A stretch of 64,000 bases of DNA from Capsulimonadaceae bacterium. GTDB taxonomy: Bacteria > Armatimonadota > Armatimonadia > Armatimonadales > Capsulimonadaceae. The stretch's first letter is position 1. Every line of letters starts with the position of its first letter. The translations under genes and the position numbers were made by a program. Below are positions 28,117-49,915 of the stretch, one piece after another. The DNA is taken from the NCBI GenBank assembly GCA_965215505.1, contig OZ244065.1:3712001-3776000 (forward strand). The letters are read 5' to 3'. The notes under the pieces were generated by a model. It did not search any database. It saw only the letters and a program-made list of their open reading frames with translations, and was not told the DNA's origin.

Positions 28117-28329
28117 GGAAGGGCGAACGGGACAGGAAGGGCGAACGGGACAGGAAGGGCGAACGGGACAGGAAGGGCGAACGGGACAGGAAGGGCGAAC
28201 GGGACAGGAAGGGCGAACGGGACAGGAAGGGCGAACGGGACAGGAAGGGCGAACACAAGGTTCGCCCCTACGGGGCAGACGGACAGGACGTTTGGACGGA
28301 TGTAGGGCGCGAACCTTGTGTTCGCCCTT
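28117..28329. repeat. 18-bp tandem array (7 perfect copies of GGAAGGGCGAACGGGACA) abutting a GTAG-REP doublet
   Basis: Units at 28117-28242; REP arms at 28245-28271 and 28302-28329. Confidence 0.85.
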
Positions 28330-44604: not shown

Positions 44605-45615
44605 ATGCCATCCTCACCTGCGCCCTACTACGGTTTCAACTTCCTCTGGATGTACGTCTCGGACGGAGAGACGCCCCGCCCGCCCGACGAGCGCGCGCTG
44701 GACTTCCTGGTCCGGACCGGCTTCAACTTCGTGCGCGTCCCGACCAACTACCGCTCCTGGATCAAGGACTTCGACTATTTCCACCCCGACGAGGCCGTCT
44801 TTTCCTACATTGACCGCTACCTCGACGCCTGCCGGTCGCGCGGCCTGCATCTGAGCCTGAACCTGCACCGCGCGCCCGGCTACTGCATCAACAACAACGA
44901 CCTGGAGCGCGACAACCTCTGGCTCGACCCGGTCGCCCAGGACGGGTTCGTCTTCCAGTGGGAGACCTTCACCCGCCGCTTCCTCGGCACCCCCAGTTCC
45001 GCGCTCTCCTTCGACCTCCTGAATGAGCCGCCGAATGTCGGGCAGTACGGCCTGACCCGCGAAAACCACGCCGCCGTCATCCGCCGCGCCGTTCAGGCCA
45101 TCCGCGCGATTGACCCCGCCCGCGAGATCGTCATTGACGGCCTGGGCGGCGGCCACCTCGCCATGCCCGAGCTTGCCGACCTTGGCGTGGTCCACAGCGG
45201 ACGTGGCTACCAGCCCATGCCGGTCAGCCACCACAAGGCAAGCTGGTGGGACGGCCACGCGGCCGCCCCCGCGCCCGAGTATCCCGGCCAGGTGTGGGAG
45301 GGCCGGACGTGGGACCGCGACTCGCTGCGCGAGTTTTACCAGCCCTGGCGGGACGTGGAGGCGGGCGGCGCGCGGGTACACATCGGCGAGTGCGGCTGCT
45401 ACAACAAGACCCCCAACGACATCGTCCTGCGCTGGCTTGGGGACCTGTTCGGCCTGTACAAAGAGTTCGGCTGGGGCTACGCCCTCTGGAACTTCGCCGG
45501 CGACTTCGGCATCGTCGAACACGGCCGCCCCGGCGCGGTCTACGAGGAGCTGCACGGGTACAAAGTGGACCGCGCCCTGCTGGACATCCTAACGGAGAGC
45601 CGCGCATCGGCATGA
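44605..45615 (+). CDS. Glycoside hydrolase family 5
   Basis: GFNFVRVP, LHRAPG, NEP acid/base, IGECG nucleophile, WN. Confidence 0.88.
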   Translation: MPSSPAPYYGFNFLWMYVSDGETPRPPDERALDFLVRTGFNFVRVPTNYRSWIKDFDYFHPDEAVFSYIDRYLDACRSRGLHLSLNLHRAPGYCINNNDLERDNLWLDPVAQDGFVFQWETFTRRFLGTPSSALSFDLLNEPPNVGQYGLTRENHAAVIRRAVQAIRAIDPAREIVIDGLGGGHLAMPELADLGVVHSGRGYQPMPVSHHKASWWDGHAAAPAPEYPGQVWEGRTWDRDSLREFYQPWRDVEAGGARVHIGECGCYNKTPNDIVLRWLGDLFGLYKEFGWGYALWNFAGDFGIVEHGRPGAVYEELHGYKVDRALLDILTESRASA

Positions 45616-45670
45616 CAGAGGACAGGAAGAGGGGGTATAACTCTAACACGACACGCGGGGGACTGAAGAC

Positions 45671-46408
45671 ATGAGACAAGCCAGCTTTGCGGACATTAAC
45701 GAGGACTTCACGGCCCCGCCGTCGGGCTGCCGCGTGGTGCGCGCCGACGCCCTGACGGCATTGGCCGCCGTTCCCGATAGGACCTTCCGCTGCTGCGTCA
45801 CCAGCCCTCCGTACTGGGGCCTGCGCGATTATGATGTTGAACACCAGGTCGGGGCGGAGCCGAGGCTGGAAGATTACATTGCCAACGTGCGCGCCGTCTT
45901 CGCCGAGGTCCGTCGGACGCTGACGGACGACGGGACGCTCTGGCTAAACATTGGGGACAGCTACACAAGCGGGGGGCGGACCTGGCGCGACGCGGACAAG
46001 AAGAACAAGGGCCGGGCGATGGATTACCGCGCGCCTACTCCAGACGGGCTGAACCCCAAGGACCTCATTGGCGTCCCCTGGCGGCTCGCGTTCGCCTTGC
46101 AGGACGACGGCTGGTATCTGCGCTCGGACATCATCTGGCACAAGCCCAACTGCCAGCCGGAGAGCGTCAAGGACCGGCCGACGCGCGCCCATGAATACCT
46201 GTTCCTGTTCTCCAAGTCGGAGAAGTATCACTACGATCACGAGGCCGTCAAGGAGCCAACGGCCACGGCAGGCATGAAAGAGACGGGCCTGAAAAACCGC
46301 CGCTCCGTCTGGTCCGTCAATGAACCGCAGATGAGGCTTCGAAGTGACCTTACTCCTGAGCAGCGAGCATACGTTTTGCGGAGAATTGCCGACGAGGGTT
46401 TGCTCTAG
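45671..46408 (+). CDS. N4-cytosine DNA methyltransferase (beta class), N-terminal half
   Basis: TSPPYWGLRDY catalytic motif, LWLNIGDSY, IIWHKPN, HEYLFL, NRRSVWSVN, then a 28-aa foreign tail; no SAM-binding motif. Confidence 0.9.
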   Translation: MRQASFADINEDFTAPPSGCRVVRADALTALAAVPDRTFRCCVTSPPYWGLRDYDVEHQVGAEPRLEDYIANVRAVFAEVRRTLTDDGTLWLNIGDSYTSGGRTWRDADKKNKGRAMDYRAPTPDGLNPKDLIGVPWRLAFALQDDGWYLRSDIIWHKPNCQPESVKDRPTRAHEYLFLFSKSEKYHYDHEAVKEPTATAGMKETGLKNRRSVWSVNEPQMRLRSDLTPEQRAYVLRRIADEGLL

Positions 46409-47368
46409 TCAGATGGCACCCGCGCGAACAGTACAGAACGCCAGGACGGTCTGCTGTAAACACCTTGCCGCAAGCTTGACACGCTTGGGGATCTCGTTTA
46501 AGGTGTACAGATCGACACGACCGAGAACAATATTTCAAGGTTCGGGAGGTCGCTCTCCGAGAAACGAAAACCTTGCCACACGCGATGCAGGATGCAGTAC
46601 AGCAGGCGTCACAAACTTTAGACGCAGGGGAGCGGGGCGTGAAGTCTACCCCGCACTTTGCACATGGGCGCAAAGGGACAACAAAGGGAAAACGTCGTAG
46701 GTCAGCAATGTCGGGATTGTTCCGCAGGAAGGCTATCTCCGCTTTGCCGTGACACTTGGGGCAGAGAGTAACAAGGTTTTCAATCTTGTTGGCATGGCGG
46801 TAGTCGGTAAACAGGTGGAACGGCGTGACATGATGCACAGGCAATCCACGGGCGATTATTCCACAGTGCTGACAAGTATCGTTGTCCCGCTTCCTGGCAG
46901 CGATTCTCTGGCGGTTCCAGTTTTCGCCACGATAGCTCATATGGCCGCCCTGCCATGTCGAGTTGTTTGGGCCGCTCATAATTCCAGAAGACCGCCATTT
47001 GGCCGCGCAGGATCGGCCGCAGAAGTTGTGTTCTTTGAGGCTACTTGGGCTGCGCTCTATCGTTCTGCCGCACATGAAGCAAGGAACCGAAACTTTCTTG
47101 GAGCCTACGCCTTTACGATGAGCCTGTTGCCATTTGCCGTAGCACGACAATCCGCAGAAATGGTTCACGGACAGCCCCGCCATGTAGGGCTTTGCCTGGT
47201 ACGGTGAGCCGCATTCATCACATGTTAGGGTGATCATGCTCTATCATACGCTCTAAATGGAAAATCGTCAATGAACATCACTTTGCGCCGGGACGAGATA
47301 CCCGATGACCTGCTAGAGTTTTTCGAGGATGCTGATACGCAGGCAAAAACGGACGTGTTCCGTGTCAA
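46321..47368. mobile_element. HNH endonuclease-carrying insert splitting the methyltransferase
   Basis: Removing these 1048 bp (GTCAA at both junctions) restores SVWSVNTEAFREAHFATFP in frame; the insert is visibly lower in GC. Confidence 0.75.
46350..47237 (-). CDS. HNH endonuclease with multiple Cys-rich zinc-binding repeats (homing-endonuclease-like)
   Basis: RDNDTCQHCG...VHHVTP...NKIENLVTLCPKCH; repeated CxxCG...(F/Y)CxxxC units on both sides. Confidence 0.9.
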   Translation of the reverse strand: MITLTCDECGSPYQAKPYMAGLSVNHFCGLSCYGKWQQAHRKGVGSKKVSVPCFMCGRTIERSPSSLKEHNFCGRSCAAKWRSSGIMSGPNNSTWQGGHMSYRGENWNRQRIAARKRDNDTCQHCGIIARGLPVHHVTPFHLFTDYRHANKIENLVTLCPKCHGKAEIAFLRNNPDIADLRRFPFVVPLRPCAKCGVDFTPRSPASKVCDACCTASCIACGKVFVSRRATSRTLKYCSRSCRSVHLKRDPQACQACGKVFTADRPGVLYCSRGCHLTRANPRRQFSAKRMLAAQE

Positions 47369-47591
47369 CACCGAAGCCTTCCGCGAAGCGCACTTCGCCA
47401 CCTTCCCTACCAAACTTGTCGAGCCGTGCATCCTGGCCGGGTCGGAGCCGGGCGACACGGTCCTTGACCCCTTCCTCGGCTCCGGCACGGTCGGGCTGGT
47501 GGCCTGCCGACTGGATCGGAAGTTCTTGGGGGTGGAGTTGAGCGAGGAATACGCCTCAATCGCCCGGCGGCGGCTGGGCTGGACTAAATAG
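47271..47591 (+). CDS. N4-cytosine DNA methyltransferase, C-terminal half
   Basis: 33-aa foreign head, then TEAFREAHFATFP...VLDPFLGSGT (SAM-binding)...GVEL. Confidence 0.88.
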   Translation: MNITLRRDEIPDDLLEFFEDADTQAKTDVFRVNTEAFREAHFATFPTKLVEPCILAGSEPGDTVLDPFLGSGTVGLVACRLDRKFLGVELSEEYASIARRRLGWTK

Positions 47592-47750
47592 GTTCTGCTC
47601 CGGCGGGGGCGGTGTATCTTCCGGGGCGGGAGCGACGGTGGGGATGATCCAGGAGACGTGCCGAACGCAGAACTCTATTTGCAGGCCGGAGATGGTGATC
47701 TTGCCGTCGCTCCCGTCCAGGCGCAGTGTGAACGCAGGCCGCCCATCAAT

Positions 47751-48846
47751 AGATACTCCGTGAAATAGAGAAAGGGGTTGTCCCTGCCGAAGATTGTGGC
47801 ATGAACCTGACCCAACTGCACCGCCTGCCCAAAGACCGTGTCCGTGCCCTCTTCGGCCTCGACCCCGCCGCCCTCGGCCAACTGCTGGCCGCCGTCCTGC
47901 CCCCGCTTGTGGGGAAGCGGCACGCCTAACAGGAGGCCAAGGGGAAGCGGCACGCCCAACAGGAGGCCAAGAGGAACCGGCAGCGCGCCGTCGGCGGCGG
48001 GCGCAGGCGCAAGCTGCTCCCGTACCAGGAGGTTTTGATCACCCTGGTCTACCTGCGCCACAACGTCTCCCACGCCGTCTCCCACGCCGTCTGCGGCCAG
48101 ATGTTCGGCGTCAGCGCCGACATCAGCGAGAACAGCTTCCACGAGGTCATCCGGCTCTTGCGCGACGTGTGCCCCGCCGACCGCTGGGGCGCCGAGAAGA
48201 AGTGGACCAAGAGGGAGCCGTCGTGGCACCCCGACACGCTGGACCTGATCCTGGTGGACAGCTTCGAGACCCCCATCGGCCGGTCGAGCCTGCCGGACGT
48301 GCAGCGCAAGTTCTACTCGGGCAAGAAGAAGCGCCACACGACCAAGACACAGATCATTACCAACAAGCAGGGCGAGGTGCTTGCCATTGAGCCGGGGCAC
48401 CCCGGCCCTAAGTCCGATAAGAAGCTCTACGAACAAAGCCGGGCCAAAGATCAGTACCCGCAACGGGCCAAAGATCAGTACCCGCAAGCGGCGCGTCGGG
48501 CGGACCTTGCGTATGTGGGCGTGCCGGAGATGCTGCTGCCGCACAAGAAGGTGCGGGGCAAAGCAGGCGAGAAAGCCCTGCCGCTGACGCCGGAGCAGCA
48601 GGAAGAGAACCGGCACGCGGCGTCGGCGCGTGTCCCGGTGGAGCACGGGGTACGCCGGGTGAAGGCGTGGCGCATCCTGCGCGACGAGTACCGTCTGGCG
48701 CGGGGCCTGTTCTCGACGATCGCGCTGGCGACGGTGGGGCTGGTTCATCTGAGCCGTGTTGTGCCTGGATGAAGCCAAGCCGGAACAGAAGGGCGGCTGC
48801 GCCGCCCAGCTCACCCGGCAAGACATGGCTATTTCACGGAGCATCT
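47751..48846 (+). mobile_element. IS5-like (ISL2/DDE_Tnp_4-type) insertion sequence
   Basis: 18-bp TIRs AGATACTCCGTGAAATAG / AGATGCTCCGTGAAATAG, 3-bp AAT duplication. Confidence 0.9.
47801..48772 (+). pseudogene. Transposase with a premature stop and internal duplications
   Basis: GGGRRRKL, LVYLRHN, VDSFE, YSGKKKRH, ADLAYVG, RVPVEH; TAA at 47927. Confidence 0.85.
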
Positions 48847-49915
48847 AATGGTGACCTTCACACTGCTACCGCCTTGGGAGGTCCGGGGACTGAAATCGGC
48901 GGACGTCAGGGCGGCAACGCGCCCCAGAACGTCGCGCGGTATCTCCACGATCTCGCAGAGCAGTCGGGTCGCCGACACGTCCCGTGCGCGGAGTACGAGG
49001 ATGCGGTCGTACTGGCTGAGGTGGGCTGGTATCCGCCGCGCGGCTTCCCGAGCCAGGTCTTCCAGCGTGGAGAACTGCTGTATCCAACGCGCCTCGGTGA
49101 ACTTGGAGATGGTGATCTTGTCCGGGCGGATGTCTTTAGAGGCTTCCGTTTTCAGCGAGAGCTTGACGCCTTCAACGGTCACGTCAATGCCGGAGAAGGT
49201 GTCACTGACAGTGATCGTCTCGGCCCTGCCATCGGCTGCACAGGCTCCCCTGAAGGCGTATTCAAACGCCTTCTTGCTCAACCGGGCTTCGTTCGTCGCG
49301 TGATGGATGAGGAGGCGGTTGCGAGAATCAGCCGTGAAGCGGGGCGTGGCAAAATCACTGGCCGGGTTGACGGTTTCCTCGACCTGACGCATCATCGTCC
49401 GGGCGACTTCGGTCAGCAACTCCACTTGAATCGGGTCAAGCCTCGTCGCGACCGAGATCAGTTCCCGAAGGGCGGTGCGTTCCTCGGCTTCGTCGGGCGG
49501 TTGATCGTCTCGCAGCATCACACCGAATTTAACACAGATTCCATCAGGAGTCAAACCCCATTGGGAAAGGCCGAGCGCAACGCGCCCGGCCTTCTGCTAT
49601 CCGACTGTGGGTGAAGGAGGTTGCTCGCCCTAAACTTCGCTCCGCGACTCGGGCTGCGGCGGCGAGATCGCGCCGCTGGTGGCGGCCCGCTCGAAGCTGT
49701 CTACTAGACCGGCGAAGCGCTCGAAGCGGCGGGCGGCGGCGGGGGACAGGTTATCCGTGTTGACTTTGGCGTCGTTGGGGGCGGGGCGCGGTTCGGCCCC
49801 TCTCTGTGACGGCGAGACGTTCGAGTTGATCGTTTCCGGCATGACTTGTTTGACCCCTTCCGCCAATGCTGCCTGCAATGGTTCCTGTCTGGCCTGCGGT
49901 TCCTGATTATACCCG

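What the first reader, a model, noticed from the sequence alone, without database searches (positions are those of the whole stretch)
46322..47369. Insert-encoded terminal peptides may be a pair of docking tags
Seen: the N-half gains EPQMRLRSDLTPEQRAYVLRRIADEGLL (28 aa, amphipathic helix-like) and the C-half gains MNITLRRDEIPDDLLEFFEDAD... (33 aa, acidic/hydrophobic). Both read like folded protein rather than random read-through, and the first stays open while overlapping the HNH 3' end antisense for 59 nt (46350-46408). Inference: the two peptides form a split mini-domain that joins the halves non-covalently, like a split intein without splicing.
Basis: inference. Interest (0 to 1): 0.8.

Follow-up and report, generated by a model that had tools for sequence, protein, structure and literature searches.

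The report
Mobile nuclease cassette with methylase-joining tails
A selfish DNA-cutting gene has split this bacterium's DNA methylase gene in two and brought along a conserved pair of short peptide ends, one for each half, which probably help the halves work together, a trick already published for two phage genes but apparently not for methylases.

Summary
A PF01555 DNA methylase is split at 46321/47370 by a 1,048-base insert with an antisense HNH nuclease gene. Unsplit 290-residue relatives (93% identical) lack the 28 extra residues on the N-half and the 33 on the C-half.

The two peptides are not chance read-through. The same pair recurs on split methylases in another Acidobacteria genome, metagenome and viral contigs, and 68 mycobacteriophage records. 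It occurs at four or more split sites, with HNH nucleases, Vsr-type nucleases or no nuclease. Both peptides keep their residues through saturated synonymous change (28 of 28 pairs pN<pS, in that open frame alone).

Binding between the peptides was not tested, because the complex predictor was unavailable. Two single-chain folds were uninformative.

The closest known cases are the mobE tails on split NrdA of phage Aeh1 and the MobA extensions on T4 topoisomerase. It is not an intein and not an intron.

Here the partner SmaI-type restriction gene has lost its 3' end next to an insertion sequence. So this copy's methylase need not still be under selection.

This scan found the same cassette earlier in two other genomes. 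I rate it a new variant of a known kind.

The parts
45671..46321 (+). Host part of the methylase N-half (residues 1-217: catalytic motif IV region through the target-recognition part, ending with the S-V-W-x-V motif)
   Evidence: PF01555 profile positions 2-145, E 2.2e-28. 93% identical to unsplit P0001 over 89% of the query.
46322..46408 (+). Insert-encoded C-terminal tail of the N-half (28 codons plus stop); conserved core R-L-R-x-D-L-T-P-E followed by a helix
   Evidence: Absent from unsplit relatives. Homologous tails occur on P0241-P0244, L003, L004, L015, L045 and phage loci. 28/28 pairs pN<pS in this frame.
46350..47237 (-). Free-standing HNH homing-type endonuclease gene with zinc-ribbon repeats, antisense to the methylase
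   Evidence: PF01844 E 1.1e-6. phrog_1271 HNH endonuclease E 1.4e-34. Catalytic H/N/H columns are invariant in alignment A3. Single copy in the genome.
47243..47271 (-). Promoter-like -35/-10 pair directly upstream of the HNH start, inside the 33-nt spacer
   Evidence: 10 of 12 consensus matches. This is a consensus match only, not evidence of function.
47271..47351 (+). Insert-encoded start codon and acidic N-terminal tag of the C-half (27 residues); conserved core I-P-x-x-L-x-x-F-F-E
   Evidence: Absent from unsplit relatives. Homologous tags occur on P0121, P0122, P0129, P0160, P0241, P0243, L003, L004, L015, L045 and phage loci. 28/28 pairs pN<pS. Net charge -6.
47352..47369 (+). Six codons that repeat, in diverged form, the host motif at the end of the N-half; comparable to the 'HomR' region of MobA elements
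   Evidence: Pfam aligns them to the same profile columns as the N-half end. Alignments. HomR is described in bioRxiv 10.1101/2022.08.31.505936, section 6 (read).
47370..47591 (+). Host part of the methylase C-half (motif X, AdoMet-binding motif I, C-terminus)
   Evidence: PF01555 profile positions 142-220, E 2.9e-22. Aligns to residues 218-290 of unsplit relatives.
48035..48772 (+). Transposase ORF of an insertion sequence lying between the methylase and the restriction gene (context)
   Evidence: PF13359 DDE_Tnp_4 E 1.9e-25.
48829..49554 (-). SmaI-family type II restriction endonuclease gene, the methylase's partner, lacking its last ~32 codons (context)
   Evidence: PF17411 E 1.2e-17, profile positions 8-182 of 240 only. 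PADLOC REase_II E 2.9e-24. Alignment with three relatives shows the missing C-terminus.

Best explanation
Window 46322-47369 is a roughly 1.05-kb mobile cassette that has split the N4/N6 DNA methylase of a SmaI-type restriction-modification system. The cassette has three parts. The first is 28 codons plus a stop, read in frame from the N-half. The second is an HNH homing-type nuclease gene on the opposite strand, with its own promoter-like site. The third is a start codon, a 27-residue acidic tag and a 6-residue diverged copy of the target motif, read in frame into the C-half. The two peptides are the conserved 'extension pair' of a family of such cassettes. This family splits PF01555 methylase genes at several positions and carries either HNH or Vsr-type nucleases. 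What is shown: the peptides belong to the insert, they recur with it, they are selected as peptides, and they persist after the nuclease gene is lost. What is inferred: they let the separately translated halves assemble into, or stabilise, an active methylase, which would make the insertion nearly harmless to the host. That is the role shown for the mobE tails of Aeh1 NrdA and proposed for the MobA extensions of T4 topoisomerase. Direct tail-to-tag binding is the most likely mode but is unproven. In this genome the selection that would keep the methylase active may already be relaxed, because the partner restriction gene is truncated.
For: (1) The peptides come from the insert. Unsplit relatives lack both peptides: P0001-P0004, same-genus loci L054 and L055, and phage Phegasus gp63.
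(2) The pair recurs. C-tags are on P0121, P0122, P0129 and P0160. Tails are on P0241-P0244. P0241 and P0243 are middle pieces with a tag at the N-terminus and a tail at the C-terminus. Both peptides occur in L003, L004, L015, L045 and phage loci.
(3) At least four split sites are used: the S-V-W site; before K-P-K-D-L-I-G; before Q-I-G-L-E; and inside a C-x-x-C after motif X.
(4) There are two nuclease types, always antisense. HNH is found in the window, L003 and L015. A DUF559/Vsr-like nuclease is found in L004 and in Seagreen gp73, annotated 'vsr'.
(5) The pair persists without a nuclease. In 11 of 16 viral loci with the tail, no nuclease ORF lies between tail and tag. In L045 both methylase ORFs are intact, a GGAG sits ahead of the second start in the short spacer, and the tag is fused in frame.
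(6) Selection acts on the peptides. By Nei-Gojobori counts over 8 loci, 28/28 pairs have pN<pS for the tail (median ratio 0.42) and 28/28 for the tag (median 0.50), with no stops. Among the other five frames only the mirror antisense frame reaches 28/28, and it carries stops. In L004 the tail core lies outside the antisense nuclease ORF.
(7) Charge. 8 of 9 distinct tags are acidic, net -3 to -7.
(8) Precedent. Oppositely charged, insert-derived tails are essential for split NrdA activity (PMC3045599, abstract, introduction and discussion read). Conserved extensions plus HomR occur in MobA elements, including swaps to Vsr or GIY-YIG nucleases (bioRxiv 10.1101/2022.08.31.505936, sections 6 and 12 read).
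(9) The element is found in several samples. Contigs from 4 runs of 4 studies cover the whole insert. Of 40 listed differences, 33 lie in the N-half at third codon positions, 6 in the insert and 1 in the C-half (72 more differences were not shown).
Against: No binding or activity was measured or predicted (tool unavailable).
The AlphaFold2 models of P0241 (mean pLDDT 49) and P0243 (66.5) give the tag low confidence (about 52-56). They show only isolated helices, with no strands in either peptide.
The tails are not uniformly basic: net charge runs from -1 to +6, and the window's tail is 0. The charge complement is therefore weaker than in Aeh1.
In the mycobacteriophage alleles a 7-nt gap containing a stop separates the tag ORF from the methylase C-part. 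Unless ribosomes shift or hop there, the tag is not attached to the piece it should dock.
L003 is a decayed copy: its tail is out of frame and its C-half is cut to 38 residues.
In contigs of runs X7 and X8 the otherwise invariant Pro of the tail core is changed: 46355 C>T is listed, and the codon reading is mine.
In this window the restriction partner lacks its C-terminus. Nothing here requires the split methylase to be active.
In Aeh1 the tails were not needed for the halves to bind each other (PMC3045599, discussion).
Confidence: 0.6

Rival explanations
1. The peptides are functional and selected, but they do not bind each other. Each may stabilise or cap its own fragment, contact the other fragment's body, or promote a higher-order assembly. 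In split NrdA the tails were dispensable for pairing of the halves but needed for dimerisation and activity.
For: PMC3045599, discussion (read): tail-less mutants still formed the heterodimer. The single-chain models show each peptide as a lone helix. Tail charge is not consistently opposite to tag charge. Three-piece methylases carry the same pair at two junctions (P0241 and P0243), which would cause cross-pairing if the tags alone decided the partners.
Against: Tail and tag always come as a pair, whatever the split site. That is easiest to explain if they act on each other. A fragment-specific contact would not be expected to transfer between four different sites of the fold.
Confidence: 0.24
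2. The conservation reflects constraints on the cassette's DNA or RNA, and the peptides are by-products. The constraints could be the nuclease's 3' coding end on the other strand, its promoter, and translation start and stop signals for the halves.
For: In the window 59 nt of the tail overlap the HNH 3' end. The HNH C-terminus is conserved in some relatives. The spacer and the tag start overlap a promoter-like site. In the phage alleles the F-E-E codons of the tag form a GAGGAGG six bases ahead of the annotated GTG start of the C-part (the reading is mine).
Against: Synonymous sites are saturated while residues are kept, and only in the peptide frames among open frames. In L004 the tail core lies outside the nuclease ORF. 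The pair is kept in 11 of 16 viral loci that have no nuclease gene at all. Vsr-type and HNH-type nucleases have different 3' ends but the same tail.
Confidence: 0.07
3. The two peptides are the remains of a split intein, and the halves are joined covalently by trans-splicing.
For: [quoted passage not shown] True inteins do sit in related methylases: L015 and Atcoo gp55, annotated 'methylase + intein'.
Against: 28 + 27 residues are far short of an intein fold. Pfam finds only PF01555 in both halves. No Cys, Ser or Thr is conserved at the start of the tail, and no His-Asn at the end of the tag, across the aligned examples. In fractured genes all three ORFs lie on one strand (PMC2677866, section 10); here the nuclease is antisense.
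Confidence: 0.03
4. The extensions are chance read-through to the first stop and the first in-frame ATG of a gene killed by the insertion, and they have no function.
For: 28 open codons are not rare by chance. L003 shows that copies do decay. The local restriction partner is truncated, so a dead methylase would be tolerated here.
Against: Homologous peptides occur in many independent contexts and are under purifying selection. Both halves in the window are intact and 84-93% identical to unsplit relatives.
Confidence: 0.02

Closest known systems
mobE insertion in nrdA of Aeromonas phage Aeh1 (NrdA-a / MobE / NrdA-b; Crona et al. 2011, PMC3045599)
   Same: A free-standing HNH homing nuclease gene splits an enzyme gene. 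The insert supplies a C-terminal tail to the first piece and an acidic N-terminal tail to the second. There is no RNA or protein splicing, and lower GC marks the insert.
   Different: In Aeh1 there is one known site in one gene, the nuclease lies on the same strand, and the tails were said to be unlikely to be found by similarity. Here one recognisable tail pair recurs at four or more sites of methylase genes, with two nuclease families, always antisense. Tail function was shown biochemically in Aeh1 and has not been tested here.
MobA element splitting the T4-type topoisomerase gene (genes 39/60; Manning and Atkins, bioRxiv 10.1101/2022.08.31.505936)
   Same: The mobile element adds conserved C- and N-terminal extensions. 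The N-terminal extension consists of a unique part plus a diverged copy of the target region (HomR). The nuclease is sometimes replaced by Vsr or GIY-YIG types or lost, while the split and the extensions remain.
   Different: MobA always sits at the same site of one gene, on the same strand, and carries the 50-nt bypass cassette. The window's element has no gap. Related phage alleles have a 7-nt stop-containing gap; see Noticed in passing. The extensions are about 44 residues in MobA and 27-28 here.
Fractured genes with split inteins (Dassa et al. 2009, PMC2677866)
   Same: An enzyme gene is broken in two with a free-standing nuclease gene (Vsr-like in half of the loci) between the pieces. The arrangement is mostly found in phages.
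   Different: In those loci the flanking peptides are real split-intein halves and all ORFs are on one strand. No methylase is among the eight host enzyme types (terms 'methyltransferase' and 'methylase': 0 occurrences).

Membership tests
Homing-nuclease cassettes that split a gene and add assembly tails (MobE/nrdA, MobA/topoisomerase type) | A free-standing homing-type nuclease gene lies between two pieces of one host gene | tested here: met
   An HNH ORF lies between two halves that match adjoining parts of PF01555.
Homing-nuclease cassettes that split a gene and add assembly tails (MobE/nrdA, MobA/topoisomerase type) | In-frame C- and N-terminal extensions are encoded by the insert and absent from unsplit alleles | tested here: met
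   Alignments with unsplit relatives.
Homing-nuclease cassettes that split a gene and add assembly tails (MobE/nrdA, MobA/topoisomerase type) | The extensions are conserved among independent insertions and kept after the nuclease is lost | tested here: met
Homing-nuclease cassettes that split a gene and add assembly tails (MobE/nrdA, MobA/topoisomerase type) | The extensions are required for the activity or assembly of the split enzyme | not testable with these tools
This needs biochemistry.
Homing-nuclease cassettes that split a gene and add assembly tails (MobE/nrdA, MobA/topoisomerase type) | The nuclease gene is on the same strand as the host gene (as in MobE and MobA) | tested here: not met
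   The nuclease is antisense in the window, L003, L004, L015 and Seagreen.
Split intein / fractured gene | Intein (HINT) sequence blocks, with a nucleophile at the first intein residue and at the first residue after it | tested here: not met
   Pfam finds no intein domain in either half. No conserved Cys, Ser or Thr at the junction columns. The peptides are 28 and 27 residues long.
Self-splicing intron carrying a nuclease ORF | A structured ribozyme flanks the ORF | tested here: not met
   No Rfam match at E<=1 in 45600-47700. Only 28 and 132 nt of the insert lie outside the nuclease ORF.
PF01555 N6_N4 DNA methylase (SmaI-type restriction-modification partner) | Both halves together cover the family profile, and a cognate restriction gene lies next to them | tested here: met
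   Profile positions 2-145 plus 142-220. A PF17411 SmaI-family gene lies nearby but is truncated. An intact adjacent pair is found in relatives G130, G157 and G407.
HNH endonuclease (PF01844) | An HNH motif with the catalytic His/Asn/His kept | tested here: met
   PF01844 at 29.1 bits, above the 21.4 cut-off. H136, N150, N154 and H163 are invariant in A3.

The most novel reading that the evidence does not exclude
The tail and tag form a self-contained, portable heterodimerising module. A family of nuclease cassettes carries it from site to site, so the cassette can land at many positions of a methylase gene, and perhaps of other genes, and still leave a working enzyme. This would be a third general way, beside introns and inteins, for a selfish element to hide its insertion. 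The pair would also be a ready-made natural tag set for reassembling split proteins.
Probability: 0.35. Interest if true: 0.75.

Novelty: new variant of a known kind. Interest (0 to 1): 0.55.

Why it matters
Homing nucleases are thought to survive inside genes only when an intron or intein removes them from the product. The Aeh1 and T4 cases showed a third route, insert-encoded tails, but each was tied to one gene and one site. Here one recognisable tail pair serves at least four split sites, two nuclease families, and hosts from Acidobacteria to mycobacteriophages. That pattern suggests a modular, transferable solution rather than a local patch.

If the peptides do bind each other, three things follow:
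- They would explain how restriction-modification methylases tolerate being cut in pieces.
- They would give annotators a way to recognise 'broken' methylase genes as working ones. Many of the phage pieces are annotated as hypothetical proteins.
- They would offer small natural tags for split-protein engineering.

Tried and rejected
No verdict on binding.
- AlphaFold2 of P0241 (mean pLDDT 49.2) and of P0243 with 61 rows (mean pLDDT 66.5) predicted a helix in each peptide. The tail scored about 75-86 and the tag about 52-56. Neither model gave information on pairing.
- I tested the idea that the tail copies the C-terminal strand-helix of a methylase and the tag copies its N-terminus. hhalign of the tail and tag profiles against 115 unsplit methylases gave probabilities below 1%. 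Tail against tag gave 2.8%. I dropped the idea.
- I first argued that the restriction partner forces the methylase to stay active. I withdrew this for the window because the restriction gene lacks its last ~32 codons.
- The HNH protein was not found at E<=1e-10 in 400 other genomes of the phylum. It was not found in viral contigs with single-protein patterns. One locus turned up in genome contigs.
Only L004 was relevant. L005-L014 (gut assemblies) and L016-L017 showed no methylase or nuclease by tblastn. The contigs of P0241-P0244 were not retrieved, so their neighbourhoods were not seen.
- In the pattern scan, L037 and L040 matched only a look-alike motif inside another ORF.
- Other searches: tail against plasmids, no match; tag against phages by tblastn, no match at E<=10; Rfam, nothing.
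- No RNA holder was listed among the sequencing runs, so nothing can be said on expression.
- One low-support joint (46278 to 47517, one contig, depth 3.1) in run X7 was not interpreted.
- Literature searches found no paper describing this tail pair in methylases.
Full report
THE OBSERVATION

The region holds three ORFs:
- 45671-46408 (+, 245 aa)
- 46350-47237 (-, 295 aa)
- 47271-47591 (+, 106 aa)

Pfam places the first ORF on positions 2-145 of the PF01555 N6_N4 methylase profile. It places the third on positions 142-220. The middle ORF matches PF01844 HNH. PHROGs calls the middle ORF an HNH endonuclease (phrog_1271, E 1.4e-34).

A search of 5.8 billion proteins returned unsplit methylases of 285-290 residues that are up to 93% identical to the N-half. 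Each covers only 89% of it. The alignment puts the break after residue 217 of the N-half and before residue 34 of the C-half, and 217 + 73 = 290.

GC drops from about 0.65 to 0.51-0.57 over the insert.

One refinement concerns the last six of the 33 residues (47352-47369). They are a diverged repeat of the host motif that ends the N-half. Pfam aligns both copies to the same profile columns.

THE PEPTIDES HAVE RELATIVES

I searched short proteins with the C-half. Besides a 97% identical cluster mate (P0121), this found three diverged C-halves: P0122, P0129 and P0160, 52-56% identical. All three start with the same kind of tag, followed by the S-V-W-type motif.

I then searched with residues 200-245 of the N-half and found four proteins that end in the same tail (P0241-P0244). 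Two of them, P0241 and P0243, are middle pieces of methylases. They begin with a tag and end with a tail. Their tags sit at two other places of the fold: before K-P-K-D-L-I-G and before Q-I-G-L-E.

Three loci show the same layout at the DNA level:
- L003, an Acidobacteria MAG, holds a 57% identical HNH gene in the same tail-to-tail layout. That copy is decayed: the tail is out of frame and the C-half is reduced to 38 residues.
- L004, a metagenome contig, has tail and tag around an antisense ORF. This ORF combines zinc-ribbon repeats with a DUF559/Vsr-like nuclease domain, not HNH.
- L015, a viral contig, has tail and tag around an antisense HNH gene. The break lies inside a C-x-x-C after motif X. 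The same methylase ORF also carries a true intein.

THE PHAGE SERIES

A tblastn search with the tail found 68 mycobacteriophage records, all inside genes annotated as DNA methylase. Closely related phages show three states:
- Unsplit gene without either peptide: Phegasus gp63, with 129 nt between two anchor motifs.
- Split gene with tail, antisense Vsr-type nuclease and tag: Seagreen and KilKor, 1,063 nt between the anchors. The Seagreen ORF is annotated 'DNA endonuclease (vsr)'.
- Split gene with tail and tag but no nuclease: Ksquared, Daenerys, Philus and Atcoo, 358-379 nt between the anchors.

A degenerate pattern for the tail core found 18 viral loci. Two of them (L037, L040) are look-alikes inside another ORF. 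The other 16 have the tail at the end of a methylase piece. Of these 16, 5 have an antisense Vsr-like ORF after the tail. The other 11 have none, and there the tag motif follows 54-124 nt after the tail's stop.

L045 is the clearest nuclease-free case. Both methylase ORFs are intact, and the spacer holds a GGAG ahead of the second start. The tag is fused in frame to a C-piece that runs on through the AdoMet-binding motif.

SELECTION ACTS ON THE PEPTIDES

Codon tables show the conserved residues carried by different codons in different loci.

I made Nei-Gojobori counts over eight loci: the window, L003, L004, L015, L045, L018, L019 and L046. Three of these are close phage kin. The results:
- Tail (17 codons): pN<pS in 28 of 28 pairs.
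- Tag (16 codons): pN<pS in 28 of 28 pairs.
- Synonymous sites are near saturation.

As a control, I scored the same DNA in the other five frames. This gave 0-14 of 28 pairs, except for the mirror antisense frame. That frame also gave 28 of 28 but carries 3-6 stops in the eight sequences. The peptide frames carry none.

In L004 the tail core lies outside the antisense nuclease ORF. In nuclease-free loci nothing overlaps the tail at all. The tail is therefore not conserved merely as the reverse reading of the nuclease's end. The HNH C-terminus itself is kept only in some relatives.

WHAT THE PEPTIDES DO

This part is inference. The closest published cases are two.

The first is phage Aeh1. There mobE splits nrdA, and the insert-derived tails are essential for activity. 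One tail is basic and the other acidic. They were not needed for the two halves to bind each other (PMC3045599; abstract, introduction and discussion read).

The second is the MobA elements. These add conserved C- and N-terminal extensions and a diverged target copy (HomR) to the split T4-type topoisomerase gene. They sometimes swap the nuclease for Vsr or GIY-YIG types, or lose it, while keeping the extensions (bioRxiv 10.1101/2022.08.31.505936; sections 6 and 12 read).

The window's cassette has the same logic: tail, nuclease, tag plus a HomR-like repeat.

Tags are acidic in 8 of 9 distinct examples. Tails range from net -1 to +6.

I could not test binding. The complex predictor was unavailable. 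Folding two natural middle pieces that carry both peptides gave only a helix in each.

Weighing this, I put about 0.9 on 'conserved, selected, cassette-borne extension pair'. I put about 0.55-0.6 on 'they act by helping the halves assemble'. Direct tail-tag binding is the leading mode of action but is unproven.

RESULTS AGAINST THE READING, AND OPEN POINTS

- In the mycobacteriophage alleles a 7-nt stop-containing gap follows the tag ORF. Three sequence variants of it were seen. The methylase C-part continues in another frame. There the tag is not obviously joined to its piece.
- L003 is decayed.
- Contigs of two runs carry a change in the otherwise invariant Pro codon of the tail.
- The local context weakens any argument from necessity. 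The neighbouring SmaI-family restriction gene (PF17411) lacks about 32 C-terminal residues compared with three same-genus relatives.
- A DDE_Tnp_4 insertion sequence lies between the restriction gene and the methylase.
- Of the four same-genus relatives with an unsplit methylase, three (G130, G157, G407) have an intact restriction gene directly beside it.
- No close methylase paralogue exists in the genome.

The split methylase here may be active, or it may be a recent relic. The halves are intact ORFs.

WHAT IT IS NOT

- It is not an intein. Pfam finds no intein domain, no junction nucleophiles are conserved, and the peptides are too short.
- It is not a 'fractured gene' in the published sense. 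Those have split inteins and all ORFs on one strand, and no methylase is among them (PMC2677866, section 10 read).
- It is not an intron. There is no Rfam match, and only 28 and 132 nt of the insert lie outside the nuclease ORF.
- The idea that the peptides copy methylase termini found no support.

SPREAD

Contigs from four runs of four studies cover the whole insert. Two contigs span all of 45900-47600 with 69 differences. Of the 40 listed differences, 33 lie in the N-half, at third codon positions by my count. Six lie in the insert and one in the C-half. Another 72 differences were not shown, so this distribution is only indicative. It fits an element younger than, or exchanged between, diverged host alleles.

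NOVELTY

Five literature searches found no description of this tail pair in methylases. The principle itself is published for NrdA and topoisomerase. This scan had already noted the same cassette in two other genomes (e1-6040217 and e1-6059691).

Relative to the published cases, four things are new:
- One recognisable pair is used at several split sites.
- The nuclease is consistently antisense.
- The targets are methylases.
- One host is a bacterial restriction-modification system.

I rate it a new variant of a known kind, with interest 0.55.

Noticed in passing
window 47801-49554: The SmaI-family restriction gene (48829-49554, minus strand) lacks about 32 C-terminal residues compared with three same-genus relatives. 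An insertion sequence (DDE_Tnp_4 transposase ORF 48035-48772) lies between it and the methylase. Both genes of this restriction-modification system have therefore been hit by mobile elements.
   Followed up: yes
L018 2240-2270; L019, L020, L022-L024, L046 (mycobacteriophage loci): After the tag ORF, which ends in A-H-P-T, a 7-nt gap that starts with a stop codon (three sequence variants) shifts the methylase C-part into another frame. Possible readings are a short ribosomal hop, a +1 shift, or a restart at the annotated GTG, which lies behind a GAGGAGG formed by the tag's F-E-E codons.
   Followed up: partly
L015 3111-5084: The same viral methylase ORF that ends in the tail also carries a true intein (it starts C-L-S-G-G-T and ends T-A-N followed by S) inside the I-I-W/K-P-N motif. 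Phage Atcoo gp55 is annotated 'DNA methylase + intein'. These methylases seem to be hot spots for several kinds of selfish insert.
   Followed up: no
proteins P0036 and P0040 (alignment A1): Two unsplit methylases have a 9-residue insertion that duplicates the V-W-x-V motif exactly at the window's split site. It may be a footprint of a lost cassette or a tandem duplication.
   Followed up: no
L004 3787-4341: A second nuclease ORF with an HNH motif lies on the same strand as the methylase pieces, directly upstream of the N-piece. That N-piece itself lacks the S-P-P-Y motif. The methylase may therefore be in three pieces with two different nucleases.
   Followed up: no
window 47243-47271, minus strand: A promoter-like TTGACG-17-TATGAT sits so close to the HNH ATG (47237) that the nuclease transcript would be nearly leaderless. 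Its -35 overlaps the start codon of the C-half on the other strand.
   Followed up: no
window 28125-28271, minus strand: One reading frame gives a run of repeated F-A-L-P-V-P hexapeptides, from a tandem 18-nt repeat. It turned up by chance in a motif scan.
   Followed up: no
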